This document shows, piece after piece, positions 43,401 to 49,400 of a stretch of DNA of 64,000 bases; position 1 is the stretch's first letter, and every line of letters starts with the position of its first letter. The position numbers were made by a program. The DNA is taken from the NCBI RefSeq assembly GCF_057098645.1, contig NZ_CM169472.1. One strand, given 5' to 3'.

Positions 43401-46400
43401 ATGGATATATCGTTCGATACTGGAAAGCGTGGCGCTGACGCTGAAGAACAATTACGACAATATGTGTAATGAAATGAATCACTTTGCAAAGCATGTGATC
43501 ATTACTGGCGGCGGTTCGAACAGCGATCTGTTTATGCAAATTTTTGCCGACGTGTTCAACCTTCCGGCACGCCGTAACGCCATTAACGGTTGTGCAAGTC
43601 TGGGGGCAGCGATCAATACGGCGGTAGGTCTGGGGCTATACCCGGATTACGCAACGGCTGTCGACAAAATGGTTCGCGTGAAAGATATCTTTATGCCTGT
43701 TGAGAGCAATGCCAAACGCTACGACGCGATGAATAAAGGTATTTTCAAAGACCTAACCAAACATACTGATGTGATCCTGAAAAAATCGTATGAAGTGATG
43801 CATGGGGAATTGGGGAATGCGGATTCGATCCAGAGCTGGTCGAATGCGTAAGTGAGGAAGACCGGGCGGGAAACAGCCCGGCCTGAACATACCTGAATGG
43901 TTATCCCCGCTGACGCGGGGAACATAATAAAAACTTTAACTAGTTCGGTTTATCCCTGTTTTTACAAGGAATATTAACTACACTCGATGTCTTTAGAATA
44001 AAAGACAATACGAATCGCACTTTATCAATTTTCACTTAAAGTATGAACTGGATATCTTTATTCATAAGAACTATTCATCAACAGCGTATAGAGGCGGTTA
44101 TGTAAAACCACTCATTAGCCTCAAAACAAAGACAAACTTCCAGATTTATTACTTAATCAATGAATAACAAGCTTAAAAAATACACTGTTATACTTAAGAA
44201 AAAATTAACAGGCATTAATTAATATTAAAAAATAATATATTAAAATTTCTTAACGGTTTAAGAATTATACAAATAACACTTTGATTAAATTTAATTTTTT
44301 GTATCGATAATTGTGAACTTATCTGGCATGGGGAACTATTTTGAACATGAGGGGTTACGTGGATATGTTGCTTATTACGAGTACTGCTAATATAAAAACT
44401 TGAGAAAGAGATAACGGGTTATATGGTGGTTTATCCCCACTGGCGCGGGGAACTTGAGCCCTGCCAGAATGGGGCCTCTTTTGTACCCGGTTTATCCCCG
44501 CTGCCGCGGGGAACACATTTACTGATTGTACCAGGTAGGAAAAGATCGCGGTTTATCCCCGCTGGCGCGGGGAACTCATGATTGTCGATTTTTTCCGACA
44601 GGATTTTGCGGTTTATCCCCGCTGGCGCGGGGAACTCTCTAAACATAACCTATTATTAATTAATGATTTTTTAAGCCAGTCACAATCTACCAACTTTACA
44701 GTATCACACAAACAACACATCCATTATGTTAAAGAGCACTTAACCAATTGATTAAAAAGGTAAATATTTAAAATAACTCTATACAAACTAAAATCTACCA
44801 AACTTTACCGCAATAATTTTCACTCCAGTGAAAAATTAACGCCACAGAATTTGTAGAGAATGATAATGATTAGTTCAGGATGGGCAAAATGGAGCTTTTT
44901 CAGAGACGACAAAGAATATAAATGAGTAGAAGTCTTTACAGGTTCCACCCATTTATAACGCTTATAAATGTTTAATCAGGCAATATTTAAATATTTATGG
45001 GTTTGCATCGACAAACGCCAATTACGCGCAATGCAGGTTTCAATGCACAAACGTGTGGCATCATCCTTTTGGCTAATCGGCTGCAGTGCAATGACTCGCG
45101 GTTTATCATCGGTCAGCGTCGCCAAAAGTTCATCCAGTGCTTCAATATCACGTACGCGTCCCACTGGGTGCTTGATTTCGTTGGCTCGCTCCAGTGCCTG
45201 TGACAACACTTCATAGCCGCCGCGCATGTTCAGCTTTGGCGATACGGTAACCCAGATATTCGGTGTACAGCGTACCTCATGAGTACCACTGGTCTCGATC
45301 TGGCAGCTAAAACCGTTCTTTTCGAGCAGATCAGTCAGTGGTAGCAAATCATGAATGCAAGGCTCACCACCCGTAATCACCACATGCCGCGCGGTGTATC
45401 CCTGGCGACTAATGACAGCCAACAAGTCTTCACTGCTCGCCGCCCCCCACTTATCACTCTCTTTGGTCTTCGCCAGAATGCTGAAAAGGGAGACTTCCCG
45501 ATCCTCAAGCTTTTCCCAGGTGTGTTTGGTGTCGCACCAGGCACAGCCAACCGGGCATCCCTGTAAACGAATAAAAATGGCGGGGACGCCGGTAAAGTAA
45601 CCCTCACCTTGCAGGGTCTGGAACATCTCGTTAATCGGGTACTGCATAGCATTCTCTGTGAAGTGGATAATTGTTAATTATTGCAGATCCTGCCGCAACA
45701 ATCATGTCTTATTAACATTCTGTTACAGGCAGGTTTAAGGCAAAAAGTGCATTAGATCATAAAGAATAAAATGAAGCGGCGTATTATGTTTTAAGGAATT
45801 AATGAAAAAGGATTTAAACATGCTCAGGATATTCATCGTAATTATATTTATTTTCAATTTATCAGGCTGTGGATATAACGATATTCAAACCTATGATGAG
45901 CAGGTTAACGCCTCCTGGTCTGAGGTATTAAATCAATATCAACGTCGCGCCGATCTTATTCCTAATCTTGTCGCCTGTATTAAAGGTTATTCCAACCATG
46001 AAAAAGACGTTTTGGAAGCCGTAACATTGGCTCGTAGCCAGGCTAATCGCGCCAGCAGCGATCTTCAGCAAGCTCCCGGAGATGCACAAAAATTACAAGC
46101 CTGGCAACAGGCCCAGGCGCAGGTGACTCGCACTCTCGGTCAGTTAACGATAATTAGTGAGCGTTACCCTGAGTTAAAGGCTCAAGAGCTCTATCAAAAC
46201 TTAATGGTACAGCTCGAAGGAAGTGAAAATAGAATTGCCGTTGCGCGAGGAAGATATATTAAAGCCATTGAACAATATAATGTCACTATCCGCAAATTCC
46301 CCGCTGTATTAACCGCAAAGGTCATGGATTACACGCCAAAGAAAAATTATTTACCGGATGATGTCGCCGCAGTAAGTAAAGCCCCAACAATAGATTTTAG

Positions 46401-49400
46401 CCAGAATGCTAATGCTCATTAAGCGGGGAAGTTCTGTGCGAAATTTTATCTTCCTTATGGCTTTCTTCTGTTCATCTGTGTTTGCCACACAAATTCCAGT
46501 ACCTGAATCCCCCAAGTATGTGAATGACTTAACCGGCACATTAACAAACAGCGAAGTAAACACCCTGACCAACCAGATTAAAGCCCTGACGCAAAAAAGC
46601 CACGCACAACTGGTCGTGTTAGTGGTTGAAACAACAGGCGATGAAACCATCGAGCAGTACGCAACGCGGGTATTCGATAGCTGGAAACCGGGTGATAAAG
46701 ACCGCGATGATGGCGTTCTACTGTTAGTCGCCTGGCAGGATCATACCGTGCGTATTGAAATCGGTTACGGACTGGAAGGTATTATTACAGATGCGCAGTC
46801 CGGGCAAATTATTCGCAACAGTATTATTCCGGCATTTAAAAATGGTGATCTTGCTGGCGGTTTACAAAAGGGGATCAGCGATATTGAAAGTCGTCTTACG
46901 GGGAATAATTTAGCAACGATAACACCGACCGATCACCCTTTGCCCTTTAGCGGTTGGTGGGCATTGTTAGTCTGGGCGATAGTACTGACGTTTATTTCTG
47001 CCAGAGGATATATCAAAACGCTGGGAGTAATTTGCTTCGCAGCTATTGTACTGGCCTTTGTTTTACCTATAGCAGGCTTCAGCGGAAGCTGGGGAGTACT
47101 CGCAACATTACTCTGCTTCGCCACACCGTTCCTGGCTGTCGCCATCGCTTTTACCCCCTTCGGCAAAAAAGTTCGGGATTTGATGCGTGATGTCAACCAG
47201 CCATCACGCCATACAAGAAGCAATTCTTCCTCCCACTATTCATCATCGTCATCCTCTTCATTCAACAATGACAATTTCAGCGGTGGTGGCGGTTCATCTG
47301 GTGGCGGTGGCGCTTCCGGGCGCTGGTAACAAAAGGAATTGATATGCGTATTTTTCTCTTACTTCTGATGCTATGCGGTTTTCAGGTATTCGCTGAACAA
47401 TGGCCTTCAGTAACTGACTTAACCGGGACATTAACGACAGAAGAACAAACTGCTTTAACTCAACAATTACAGACTCTCGAGCAGCAAAACCACTTCCAGG
47501 TGGCCGTGTTGGTTACGCCGACCACAGGGGGCAAAAACATTAAACTTGCAGCCTCGCAGAGATACGGGGTATATCACTGGAAACCCGTTGGAGAGAAGCG
47601 ATATGGCGAAGGTATCTTAATTCTCGTCGTATGGCCGGAAGGGCTGGCGTCAATGAAGATTGGACATGGACTGGAACAGATGTTGCCGCCGGAACAAGCT
47701 GCGCAAATTGTTCGTTACCATATGCAGCCAGAATTCGAAAAAAACAATCTCTTTGCTGGATTAACGGGCGGAATTGAAAGCATCGCACAGTTTACCCATA
47801 TCAAAGCGAACCTTAGCCCTTTGGATGCTTTAGCCAATCATCTGTTTGCTAATCCGCAACGTTCGCTGCCATGTCTTGCCTGGACACTGCTGATGATCGT
47901 TGCCATCGTTGTCCTCTGGCGATTTGCCAGCCGCCCACGGCGTGGCATATGGATGATATCGATGATTACCCCTATGGTCTGGTTTTTCTCCTTTCAGGAC
48001 GATGTCATCATTCGGCGGGTGTCGATCGTTTGTTTTAGTTTATTGTTAGCAACAACCTGCAAGCAGCGTCTCGCGGTAGTTTTTAATTTGTGCCGCGTAT
48101 TTCCTATGATGCTGGCCCCAAAAAATAAAAACGCTAAAGTGAAAAAACAAAAGAAGACTCCGCAGGTTCGTGAATCAGGACGAAATTCATTGTTTGTCGT
48201 GATGCTGATAATTATTGTGGGATGGTGCCTGGTGTTCGCCAGTAATAAAGATATTGCATTCATCTCAACAATTATTGGGTTAATTGATCATTTTATCGGC
48301 CCAATAACCATTGCTGGCATCGTTCTGCTGATCATTGTGGCCAAATTTACTGGCAATCTTAAGTTGGGATCAGGAGAAAAAAGCAACAGGAAAACGGGGA
48401 ATCGTAATGCTCACTCTCGCTCTTCGTCGAGAAATTCTTTCCGCGGTGGTGGCGGTTCTTCAGGAGGCGGCGGTTCATCCGGCCGTTGGTGATCGTAATG
48501 CGCTTAATCTTTATTCTACTTGCTTTGTGGAGCCTTCCCGGGCTTGCCCAGCAAATTGCTGTGCCGGAGCTGCGCCAACAGGTGACCGATATTACTGGTA
48601 CGTTAAGCACTTCTGAACAACAATCACTGACACAGCAACTGCAGGATATTACACATAAAACACGGGCGCAGGTCGCTGTATTAGTAGTGCCGTCCACCGG
48701 AGACGATTCCATTGAACAATATGCTACAAGGGTTTTTGATAGCTGGAAACTGGGAGATAAGCAGAGAAACGATGGTATTTTACTTCTGGTTGCCAGGGAG
48801 GATCATGCTGTTCGTATTGAGGTTGGCTACGGGCTGGAAGGGGTGGTTACCGACCTGCAAGCGGCGAAAATTATCAGGGATATATTGATCCCTGCCTTCA
48901 AAAGTGATGACCTGATGGGTGGATTAACACTGGCAAGCGAAAATATCGGCGCGCTTCTGTTGAATGGTGAATTATCGGAAGACAAGGGGGATTATTACAG
49001 TATCAATCCTCCTATTCCATTATCGCTTGCTGTAATTATATTGCTGGCGGTACTTTCATATTTTATTGTTTTTACCGATCCGTCGAATTTACCCTGGATC
49101 ACTCTCACTGGCGCCATTTACGGGATGGTATTCCTCTATGTTGCCGAGCCAGGACCATGGACCAATTTAATCGTTGCCTGCGGTATGTTAACGCCTTTTG
49201 CGATCGTACCACTGGTTATTTTTTGGCTTATCGTCAATAAAAAGCTACGCGCCAAATACAAAAAACTCAGTAAAGAAAGAGCTTCAAGAAAAGGTTCTTC
49301 TTCATCCTCTTCCGGTAGAGGCTCAAGTGGCGGCGGGGTTAGCGGCGGGGGCGGTTCTTCTGGCGGTGGCGGCGCGTCCGGTCGCTGGTAACTCAACCAT

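What the first reader, a model, noticed from the sequence alone, without database searches (positions are those of the whole stretch)
45802..49391. Four-gene envelope module: LemA-like lipoprotein plus three tandem TPM-domain membrane paralogs between queE and eno
Four same-strand genes with tight junctions (lemA stop to a GTG start 12 nt later; paralog 1 to 2 gap 14 nt; paralog 2 to 3 gap 5 nt) end at a shared terminator. All three TPM proteins have the same layout: signal peptide, TPM domain, hydrophobic segments, Ser/Gly-rich tail. Paralogs 1 and 3 are close relatives; paralog 2 is divergent with extra TM segments. From memory, K-12 has only one TPM gene (ygcG) here and no lemA, so about 2.7 kb differs between strains. 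The function of LemA/TPM pairs is unresolved, and the module sits beside CRISPR2, which would fit a variable envelope-stress or defence-island role. That link is speculative.
Basis: partly seen in the sequence, partly recalled or inferred. Interest (0 to 1): 0.65.

Follow-up and report, generated by a model that had tools for sequence, protein, structure and literature searches.

The report
Strain-variable LemA plus three-TPM envelope operon
This is a real, intact four-gene E. coli operon (a periplasmic LemA lipoprotein plus three inner-membrane TPM/YgcG proteins), an Escherichia-specific enlargement of an operon common in Proteobacteria; about a fifth of E. coli strains have it, its function is unknown, and nothing links it to phage defence.

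Summary
Between queE and eno lie four intact, same-strand, tightly spaced genes: lemA (Pfam LemA, 1e-48) and three TPM/YgcG-type genes (5.6e-41, 3.7e-21, 3.6e-38). They end at one strong terminator.

Its interval is 1,224 bp against 3,803 bp here, with ygcG only. K-12 also carries yqcG, whose 5' part proves to be a relic of the lemA 5' end.

Among 5,426 complete E. coli genomes, 1,102 carry the four-gene form, about 350 carry lemA without paralog 2, and 3,934 carry the K-12-type ygcG. E. albertii has the same four genes at the same site, E. marmotae has three, and Klebsiella has lemA plus one TPM gene. In 74 of 80 proteobacterial species sampled, a YgcG-type gene directly follows lemA. Only Escherichia has three.

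All four genes are under purifying selection (dN/dS 0.03-0.23).

The defence-island idea finds no support: no PADLOC hits, no plasmid copies, housekeeping neighbours in other genera.

Function is unknown. The best inference is a periplasm-facing accessory or assembly module for membrane complexes.

Verdict: an ordinary, already annotated locus with a modest evolutionary twist. Interest 0.3.

The parts
45648..45819 (.). Spacer between the divergent queE and lemA genes, the presumed promoter region. G+C is 33%. The 91 bp nearest queE are nearly identical to K-12; the half nearest lemA is divergent. A PhoP-box-like site lies at 45721-45737.
   Evidence: Alignment to K-12; G+C; pattern scan with 2 mismatches. 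The K-12 counterpart binds PhoP-P (PMC4974570) and sigma-S RNA polymerase (PMC4447067, PMC5493296). The consensus scan found no sigma-70 promoter in the spacer.
45820..46422 (+). lemA: a LemA-family lipoprotein of 200 aa. An alternative upstream ATG at 45802 gives 206 aa. Lipobox LSGC, with Cys17 as the first residue of the mature protein.
   Evidence: Pfam LemA 1e-48; PDB 2ETD 5e-32; lipobox and Cys invariant in 12 proteobacterial homologs; dN/dS 0.03 against E. albertii.
46436..47329 (+). TPM paralog 1 (297 aa, GTG start): signal peptide, TPM domain, 3 TM segments, basic stretch, Ser/Gly tail ending GGGGSSGGGGASGRW.
   Evidence: Pfam TPM_phosphatase 5.6e-41; hydropathy; E. albertii ortholog 89% identical and starting with ATG at the same position; dN/dS 0.13.
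47344..48492 (+). TPM paralog 2 (382 aa): signal peptide, divergent TPM domain, 5 TM segments with a 40-residue basic loop, tail ending GGGGSSGGGGSSGRW. Found only in the genus Escherichia.
   Evidence: Pfam 3.7e-21; hydropathy; five helices in a low-confidence AF2 model; homologs of at least 77% identity only in E. coli and E. albertii, next best 40%; dN/dS 0.23, and 0.43 in the membrane half.
48498..49391 (+). TPM paralog 3 (297 aa from ATG 48498; the RefSeq start is GTG 48489). Same layout as paralog 1. It occupies the position of K-12 ygcG.
   Evidence: Pfam 3.6e-38; PDB 7TBR 8.5e-24, 5ANP, 2KW7; a mosaic TPM3/ygcG allele in strain CE-O153H30 shows the two are alleles of one position; dN/dS 0.15.
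49408..49425 (+). Intrinsic terminator hairpin (7 bp, 6 G-C) with T runs on both sides, shared by the operon and the convergent eno.
   Evidence: sequence. Inside the operon there are only weak terminator-like matches (5-bp stems).
47279..47330 (+). 52-nt direct repeat encoding the conserved C-terminal tail. The other copies are at 48442-48493 and 49341-49392 (77-85% identical).
   Evidence: The same segment is the right-hand boundary of homology with K-12.

Best explanation
What it is (shown). This is a vertically inherited chromosomal operon. It encodes a periplasmic lipoprotein of the LemA family and three inner-membrane proteins of the YgcG/UPF0603 type. Each of the three has a periplasmic TPM domain, 3 or 5 TM helices, and a near-invariant C-terminal tail, GGGGxxGGGGASGRW. 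It is the Escherichia-specific enlarged form of a lemA-ygcG operon that is conserved across Proteobacteria. In E. coli it is one of several haplotypes at the queE-eno site. The common K-12 haplotype keeps only a divergent ygcG and a relic of lemA, which is yqcG.

How it most likely works (inferred, about 0.3). After signal-peptide cleavage the TPM domains sit on the periplasmic face of the inner membrane. There they act as non-enzymatic accessory or assembly factors for membrane-embedded complexes, as other TPM proteins do (Psb32/TLP18.3 on photosystem II, CcoZ with cbb3 oxidase, MOLO-1 on a receptor channel).

LemA has Gly at position +2 after the lipid-modified Cys. By the E. coli Lol rule it should therefore go to the outer membrane. 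It would supply a helical partner on the same side of the inner membrane.

The Gly-rich tail follows an odd number of TM helices and a basic stretch, so it should be cytoplasmic. It may serve as a conserved docking peptide.

The three paralogs differ mostly in their membrane segments (8-20% identity). This suggests different membrane clients or a hetero-oligomer.

Expression probably starts in the queE-lemA spacer, and the genes are probably co-transcribed.
For: Identity and integrity:
- Pfam and PDB matches.
- Lipobox invariant in 12 homologs.
- Purifying selection on all four genes.
- 13-, 14- and 5-nt junctions and a single strong terminator.

Conserved partnership:
- In 74 of 80 proteobacterial species a TPM gene directly follows lemA on the same strand. 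40 species have a long YgcG-type gene plus a short TPM gene. Only E. albertii has three long ones.
- The tail motif is near-invariant in 62 proteins.

Ancestry:
- The same four genes lie at the same site in E. albertii, three in E. marmotae, and lemA plus one TPM gene in Klebsiella.
- The module is always chromosomal in E. coli.

Topology: hydropathy and charge distribution.

Accessory-factor role of TPM domains (literature): PMC11237479, PMC12419801, PMC8267372, and the Psb32/TLP18.3 papers listed. The LemA domain is extracytoplasmic in MamQ (PMC3905215).

Stress-linked expression elsewhere:
- lemA and a TPM gene are induced together in a Flavobacterium sppA mutant (PMC13236525).
- The K-12 spacer is bound by sigma-S RNA polymerase and PhoP-P (PMC4447067, PMC5493296, PMC4974570).
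Against: - No experiment on any LemA-YgcG pair was found in the searchable literature, so the mechanism rests on analogy with distant TPM proteins.
- No interaction between LemA and the TPM proteins was tested. No multimer prediction was available, and the single-chain AF2 models were of low confidence.
- About 73% of E. coli genomes lack lemA. Pseudogenised and IS1-deleted variants exist. The module is therefore dispensable.
- Some TPM domains have reported phosphatase or ATPase activity. BA41/BA42 are among the PDB hits, so an enzymatic role is not excluded.
- The consensus scan predicted no promoter in the spacer.
- Outer-membrane sorting of LemA and the cytoplasmic location of the tail are rule-based inferences.
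Confidence: 0.55

Rival explanations
1. The TPM domains are periplasmic enzymes (phosphatases or nucleotidases). The operon would process a phosphorylated envelope or extracellular substrate, and the three paralogs would differ in substrate.
For: The Pfam family is named TPM_phosphatase. The closest solved relatives include BA41 and BA42 of Bizionia, for which ATPase/ADPase or phosphatase activity has been reported (from my own knowledge of that literature). TLP18.3 was described as an acid phosphatase (cited in PMC11237479).
Against: Two comparative analyses argue that the phosphatase assignment is unlikely and favour an assembly role (PMC11237479, PMC12419801). Reported activities are weak. 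No catalytic motif is defined that could be checked here. The divergence among paralogs is concentrated in the membrane segments, not the TPM domain.
Confidence: 0.15
2. The module is an anti-phage defence or exclusion system, or another conflict system, placed in a variable island next to CRISPR2.
For: The site is polymorphic, with at least five haplotypes and very divergent alleles. CRISPR2 is about 1.2 kb away. LemA hits one PHROG family annotated as a virion structural protein.
Against: No PADLOC model matches any of the four proteins. There are no plasmid copies in 5,426 genomes. LemA homologs occur in only 40 of 50,697 phage records, none from E. coli phages. The lemA-ygcG pair is conserved in 74 of 80 proteobacterial species, next to unrelated housekeeping genes. 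Selection is purifying, not diversifying. queE separates the module from CRISPR2, and in B2-type strains the CRISPR2 side is replaced while ygcG stays.
Confidence: 0.06
3. The module is a decaying, functionally redundant remnant on its way to loss, as has already happened in K-12. The intact state in this strain would carry no current selective value.
For: 73% of complete genomes lack lemA. Variants exist with a truncated paralog 1, a frameshifted yqcG and an IS1-mediated deletion of queE plus the module. E. marmotae lacks paralog 2.
Against: All four ORFs are intact here, in 1,102 E. coli genomes and in E. albertii. dN/dS is 0.03-0.23 over a synonymous divergence of 0.36-0.78, which is not neutral decay. 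The C-terminal motif and the lipobox are retained.
Confidence: 0.12

Closest known systems
Conserved proteobacterial lemA-ygcG operon (COG1704 LemA with COG1512 YgcG/UPF0603); function unknown
   Same: Same gene order and strand, with a tight or overlapping junction. LemA has the same lipobox. The YgcG-type protein has a signal peptide, a TPM domain, a membrane segment and the GGGGxFGGGGASGxW C-terminus. Klebsiella has this pair at the same queE-eno site.
   Different: Here there are three long YgcG-type genes in tandem instead of one. The short (about 165 aa) TPM gene that follows in 40 of 80 species is absent. Paralog 2 has 5 TM segments and is confined to Escherichia.
E. coli K-12 yqcG-ygcG locus
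   Same: Same chromosomal site, the same flanking queE and eno, and the same terminator. ygcG is the positional allele of paralog 3, as a mosaic allele shows. The 5' part of yqcG is homologous to the lemA 5' end.
   Different: K-12 has no intact lemA and no paralogs 1 and 2. Its YgcG is only 37-42% identical to paralogs 1 and 3, and 8-18% in the membrane part. Its interval is 2,579 bp shorter.
Psb32/TLP18.3, CcoZ (Cj1484) and MOLO-1: TPM-domain accessory proteins of membrane complexes
   Same: The TPM fold lies on the extracytoplasmic (lumenal or periplasmic) face and is anchored by TM helices (Pfam; literature).
   Different: The match is far below the NCBIfam Psb32 cut-off (35 and 32 bits against 160). 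No photosystem or oxidase genes are nearby. The Gly-rich tail and the LemA partner are not features of those proteins.
MamQ, the LemA-family magnetosome membrane protein
   Same: The LemA helical domain faces the extracytoplasmic or lumenal side. MamQ is the only family member tied to a cellular process, namely membrane compartment formation (PMC4902198, PMC3905215).
   Different: The score is 88 bits against a cut-off of 250. MamQ has a TM anchor and a region specific to magnetotactic bacteria, not a lipobox. There is no magnetosome context here.
B. subtilis PspA-YdjGHI system (YdjH is a TPM protein)
   Same: [quoted passage not shown]
   Different: No pspA, band-7 or zinc-ribbon partner gene is in or next to the module. 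The partner here is LemA.

Membership tests
LemA family (Pfam PF04011) | Full-length match to the family HMM | tested here: met
   E = 1e-48, model positions 1-149 of 149. PDB 2ETD (T. maritima LemA) 5e-32.
LemA family (Pfam PF04011) | N-terminal membrane anchor followed by a helical extracytoplasmic domain | tested here: met
   Hydrophobic signal sequence with lipobox LSGC. The Cys is invariant in 12 homologs. The localisation itself is inferred, not measured.
YgcG / UPF0603 TPM-domain membrane proteins (Pfam PF04536) | TPM domain match | tested here: met
   5.6e-41, 3.7e-21 and 3.6e-38, each over about 124 of 125 model positions.
YgcG / UPF0603 TPM-domain membrane proteins (Pfam PF04536) | Signal peptide, TM segments after the domain, and a C-terminal GGGGxFGGGGASGxW motif | tested here: met
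   Hydropathy. The three tails end GGGGSSGGGGASGRW, GGGGSSGGGGSSGRW and GGGGSSGGGGASGRW, against the logo from 62 proteins.
YgcG / UPF0603 TPM-domain membrane proteins (Pfam PF04536) | Gene lies directly downstream of lemA | tested here: met
   13-nt spacer here. The same arrangement occurs in 74 of 80 species.
YgcG / UPF0603 TPM-domain membrane proteins (Pfam PF04536) | Phosphatase or nucleotidase activity, as the Pfam name implies | not testable with these tools
   Needs enzyme assays. The literature is divided (PMC11237479, PMC12419801).
MamQ (NCBIfam NF040966, equivalog) | Score at or above the curated cut-off | tested here: not met
   88.4 bits against a cut-off of 250.
Psb32 (NCBIfam NF047379, equivalog) | Score at or above the curated cut-off | tested here: not met
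   34.7 and 32 bits against a cut-off of 160; no hit for paralog 2.
Known or candidate anti-phage defence systems (PADLOC-DB 2.0) | Any component matches a defence-system model | tested here: not met
   No hits for any of the four proteins at E <= 0.01.
PSP-associated TPM systems (PspA-YdjGHI type) | Adjacent pspA, band-7 or zinc-ribbon partner genes | tested here: not met
   The neighbours are queE and eno; no such genes are in the interval.
Operon (single transcription unit) | Co-transcription of the four genes | not testable with these tools
   Supported only by the 13-, 14- and 5-nt junctions, the absence of strong internal terminators and one terminal hairpin. Needs RNA-seq or RT-PCR.

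The most novel reading that the evidence does not exclude
The outer-membrane lipoprotein LemA and a hetero-oligomer of the three inner-membrane YgcG paralogs form an envelope-spanning sensing or repair device. Its conserved cytoplasmic GGGGxxGGGGASGRW tails would signal to a cytoplasmic partner. Its presence or absence, together with the altered queE-proximal regulatory spacer, would change PhoQ/PhoP-QueE-dependent filamentation or envelope-stress tolerance between EHEC-type and K-12-type E. coli.
Probability: 0.08. Interest if true: 0.6.

Novelty: new variant of a known kind. Interest (0 to 1): 0.3.

Why it matters
LemA and YgcG/UPF0603 proteins form one of the most widely conserved gene pairs of unknown function in Proteobacteria, and E. 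coli is the obvious organism in which to study them. This work shows that K-12 carries only a crippled version: a lemA relic and one divergent ygcG. That may explain why the pair has escaped functional study. About 20% of E. coli, including O157:H7, and E. albertii carry an intact, enlarged version that could be deleted or moved into K-12. The work also reinterprets the K-12 small protein YqcG, annotated as a cell envelope stress response protein, as derived at its 5' end from the lemA signal-peptide region. None of this is surprising to a specialist. It gives a convenient experimental handle, not a new kind of system.

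Tried and rejected
1. Defence-system membership. PADLOC gave no hits.
2. Phage association.
- PHROGs: only LemA hits a family annotated as a virion structural protein.
- tblastn against 50,697 phage records found 40 weak carriers, none from coliphages. Several look like bins or prophage-plus-host DNA.
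- I dropped the phage link.
3. Simple deletion model for K-12 (recombination between paralogs 1 and 3).
- Rejected: K-12 YgcG is only 37-42% identical to both.
- Homology with the window stops at about 45854-45895 and resumes only at 49310.
4. YqcG as the N-terminus plus C-terminus of LemA (an in-frame internal deletion). The 3' similarity is no better than shuffled sequence: 49 of 300 shuffles reach the score. Only the 5' homology is claimed.
5. AF2 models.
- LemA reached pLDDT 71 and pTM 0.44. Paralog 2 reached pLDDT 54. Both are too weak for fold inference.
- Foldseek returned only 2ETD as significant, plus nonspecific coiled coils.
6. Rfam scan of 43800-50900: nothing above noise.
7. Promoter scan: no sigma-70 consensus match in the spacer.
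8. PhoP-box search: one 2-mismatch site in the spacer, but such sites are common in the window (26 found, 14.6 expected).
9. Literature.
- No paper on LemA-TPM operon function.
- My guessed O157 locus tags returned only irrelevant papers.
10. A C325 pseudogene annotation (hydroxyarylic acid decarboxylase subunit C) does not apply to this window. The ORF 4775-6202 is intact.

Full report
**1. What is in the sequence**

The window is E. coli chromosome. The 44900-49500 segment is 100% identical to strain C325, and the whole window is 99.9% identical. It runs from fhlA/mutS through rpoS, the type I-E cas genes, cysHIJ, the ygc genes, CRISPR2, queE, the module, eno, pyrG, mazEF, relA and barA to gudD.

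Between queE (44976-45647, minus strand) and eno (49451-50749, minus strand) lie four plus-strand ORFs. RefSeq annotates them in C325 as "LemA family protein" and three "TPM domain-containing protein" genes.

Starts and junctions:
- lemA: ATG 45820. This is the RefSeq start. It has an AGGA seven nt upstream and matches the start of orthologs. The stop is at 46420-46422.
- Paralog 1: a 13-nt spacer, then GTG 46436. E. albertii has an ATG at the same place. Stop at 47327-47329.
- Paralog 2: a 14-nt spacer, then ATG 47344. Stop at 48490-48492.
- Paralog 3: ATG 48498 (5-nt spacer) or GTG 48489 (4-nt overlap). Stop at 49389-49391.
- A 7-bp, 6-G-C hairpin with T runs lies at 49408-49425. Inside the operon there are only weak 5-bp terminator-like matches.

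Rfam finds nothing in the region.

**2. Domain identity**

- LemA: Pfam LemA 1e-48 over the whole model, and 5e-32 to the solved T. maritima LemA, 2ETD.
- The three paralogs: Pfam TPM_phosphatase 5.6e-41, 3.7e-21 and 3.6e-38.
- Their solved relatives are 7TBR, BA41 (5ANP), 2KW7 and BA42.
- The only NCBIfam matches are MamQ (88 bits, cut-off 250) and Psb32 (35 and 32 bits, cut-off 160). The proteins are therefore relatives, not members, of those equivalogs.

**3. Anatomy**

LemA has a hydrophobic leader ending in the lipobox L-S-G-C. The Cys and the following G-Y-N are invariant in 12 proteobacterial homologs. By the E. coli +2 rule (established knowledge), Gly at +2 predicts sorting to the outer membrane. 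This is an inference.

Hydropathy gives the following layouts:
- Paralogs 1 and 3, K-12 YgcG and the Klebsiella protein: cleavable signal peptide, TPM domain, three TM helices, a basic stretch and a Ser/Gly tail.
- Paralog 2: five TM helices with a 40-residue Lys-rich loop between helices 3 and 4.

The odd helix number and the basic residues after the last helix place the tail in the cytoplasm. This too is an inference. A low-confidence AF2 model of paralog 2 (pLDDT 54) shows the same five helices and a disordered tail.

The three tails are encoded by 52-nt direct repeats that are 77-85% identical.

Identities among the paralogs are 43-44% (1 against 3), 33-36% (1 against 2) and 32-39% (2 against 3). 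By region, the TPM domains are 48-57% identical, the membrane parts 8-20% and the tails 56-66%.

**4. Are the genes functional?**

Against the E. albertii orthologs, dN/dS values are:

| Gene | dN/dS |
|---|---|
| lemA | 0.03 |
| paralog 1 | 0.13 |
| paralog 2 | 0.23 (0.43 in its membrane half) |
| paralog 3 | 0.15 |
| queE | 0.007 |

Synonymous divergence for the four module genes is 0.36-0.78. These are constrained genes, not chance ORFs or pseudogenes.

**5. Distribution within E. coli**

Counts among 5,426 complete genomes:
- The full interval is covered at 80% or more in 1,102 genomes.
- Paralog 2 is present in 1,102 genomes at 80% or more coverage, 1,104 with any match.
- The lemA body is present in 1,451 genomes at 80% or more coverage, 1,454 with any match.
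- K-12-type ygcG is present at 80% or more coverage in 3,934 genomes, and at any coverage in 4,290.
- All copies are chromosomal.

Haplotypes seen:
- (a) The four-gene form, as here and in O157:H7.
- (b) The four-gene form with a truncated paralog 1 and a mosaic third gene (strain CE-O153H30, L097). The first 80 or so residues of that gene are paralog-3-type and the rest is K-12 ygcG-type, with the crossover at the conserved IEQYATRVF.
- (c) lemA, a truncated paralog 1 and an unrelated 120-aa ORF (L002).
- (d) The K-12 form, yqcG plus ygcG.
- (e) The K-12 form with a frameshifted yqcG.
- (f) An IS1-flanked deletion of queE plus the module.

The mosaic allele shows that K-12 ygcG and paralog 3 are alleles of one position.

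**6. The K-12 comparison**

The K-12 interval is 1,224 bp against 3,803 bp here.

Homology runs from queE through the spacer and into the first 75-95 nt of lemA. The first 91 bp are nearly identical, and identity then decays. Homology resumes only in the last 80 nt of paralog 3 and the terminator.

YqcG residues 13-41 are in the lemA reading frame. They align with the LemA signal peptide and early mature region at 35% identity. A 1-nt indel just after the position equivalent to ATG 45820 puts YqcG residues 1-12 in another frame.

The 5' part of yqcG is therefore a relic of the lemA 5' end. A matching claim for its 3' end is not significant.

K-12 YgcG is only 37-42% identical to paralogs 1 and 3. 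It has close relatives only in E. coli, so its origin is unresolved.

**7. Distribution beyond E. coli**

- E. albertii has the same four genes at the same site.
- E. marmotae has lemA, paralog 1 (missed by the gene caller but intact) and paralog 3.
- Klebsiella has lemA plus one YgcG-type gene between queE and eno.
- Tenebrionibacter, Pseudomonas and Brenneria have the pair elsewhere, among unrelated housekeeping genes.
- Paralog 2 has homologs of at least 77% identity only in Escherichia; the next best hit is 40%.

I scanned one genome per species with a LemA alignment, which returned 80 loci. I searched their ORFs with my own TPM and LemA HMMs. The results:
- 74 loci have a TPM gene directly after lemA.
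- 40 have two TPM genes: a long YgcG-type gene, then a gene of about 165 aa ending NELPDxPVVL.
- Only E. albertii has three.

In 62 long proteins the C-terminus is near-invariant: GGGG-x-[FS]-GGGG-A-S-G-x-W.

**8. Function**

No paper in the searchable library addresses the LemA-YgcG pair. The relevant knowledge is as follows:
- TPM domains are argued to be chaperone-like assembly factors for membrane complexes rather than phosphatases (PMC11237479, PMC12419801).
- The TPM protein CcoZ is needed for cbb3 oxidase activity (PMC8267372).
- Psb32/TLP18.3 act on the lumenal side of photosystem II (papers listed).
- MamQ is the only LemA-family member tied to a cellular process, and its LemA domain faces the lumen (PMC4902198, PMC3905215).
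- lemA and a TPM gene rise together in a Flavobacterium sppA mutant (PMC13236525).
- The K-12 queE-yqcG spacer binds PhoP-P and sigma-S RNA polymerase, and deleting yqcG raises queE expression (PMC4974570, PMC4447067, PMC5493296).

From this I infer a periplasm-facing accessory or assembly module. My confidence in that mechanism is about 0.3. My confidence in the identity and evolutionary description is about 0.9.

**9. The defence-island idea**

- PADLOC gives no hits.
- PHROGs gives only a LemA match to a family annotated as a virion structural protein.
- Only 40 of 50,697 phage records hold a LemA homolog, and none is a coliphage.
- Selection is purifying.
- The context in other genera is housekeeping.
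- CRISPR2 (four repeats, 44426-44637) is separated from the module by queE.

The link is not supported.

**10. Verdict**

The "expansion" is real relative to other genera. However, it is old, being shared with E. albertii, and K-12 is the reduced state. The locus is annotated in over a thousand public genomes and belongs to a widespread operon of unknown function. It is a modest variant, useful mainly as an experimental entry point.

Noticed in passing
L001 3887-4027 (K-12 yqcG) against window 45786-45895: The K-12 small protein gene yqcG, annotated as a cell envelope stress response protein, is at its 5' end a relic of lemA. YqcG residues 13-41 are in the lemA frame and align with the LemA signal peptide and early mature part. 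A 1-nt indel puts residues 1-12 in another frame. I found no mention of this in the papers searched.
   Followed up: yes
L097 4025-4897 (strain CE-O153H30): The third TPM gene is a mosaic. The first 80 or so residues are paralog-3-type (82% identity in the signal peptide). The rest is K-12 ygcG-type (93% identity in the membrane part). The crossover is at the conserved IEQYATRVF. The roughly 356 genomes with only a partial K-12 ygcG match may be of this kind.
   Followed up: partly
62 YgcG-type ORFs in loci L015-L094; window 47279-47330, 48442-48493, 49341-49392: The extreme C-terminus, GGGG-x-[FS]-GGGG-A-S-G-x-W, is near-invariant across 62 proteobacterial species, while the membrane segments before it are hardly alignable. 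It behaves like a functional peptide, not mere low complexity. Its role is unknown.
   Followed up: partly
Loci L020-L094, just downstream of the long TPM gene: In 40 of 80 species a second, short TPM gene (about 165 aa, ending NELPDxPVVL) follows the YgcG-type gene. It is absent from Escherichia and Klebsiella.
   Followed up: no
L096 3993-5930 (strain HZDC01): Two IS1 copies flank a deletion that removed ygcW (in part), yqcE, ygcE, CRISPR2, queE and the whole TPM locus. The region, queE included, is therefore dispensable.
   Followed up: no
window 25033-27698, minus strand: cas3 is split into a 785-aa ORF (25341-27698) and an overlapping 203-aa ORF in another frame (25033-25644). C325 annotates cas3 as a pseudogene. 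The type I-E system in this strain is probably inactive for interference.
   Followed up: partly
window 43896-43974 and 44426-44637: CRISPR2 has four type I-E repeats (three spacers), plus two degenerate repeat copies about 450 bp upstream. The C325 record does not annotate this array.
   Followed up: no
window 45648-49391: G+C is 33% in the queE-lemA spacer and 42-48% in the four genes, against 51% in queE, eno and the window as a whole.
   Followed up: no
window 45721-45737: A PhoP-box-like direct repeat, TGTTACAGGCAGGTTTA (2 mismatches), lies in the part of the spacer conserved with K-12, where PhoP-P binding upstream of queE was shown by EMSA (PMC4974570). Such 2-mismatch sites are frequent in the window (26 found, 14.6 expected).
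   Followed up: no
L011 6604-7509 (E. marmotae): An intact paralog-1 ORF was not called as a gene in the source annotation. The species has lemA, paralog 1 and paralog 3 but no paralog 2.
   Followed up: partly
window 4775-6202, minus strand: The hydroxyarylic acid decarboxylase subunit C gene is intact here (475 aa), although it is annotated with an internal stop in the otherwise 99.9% identical strain C325.
   Followed up: partly
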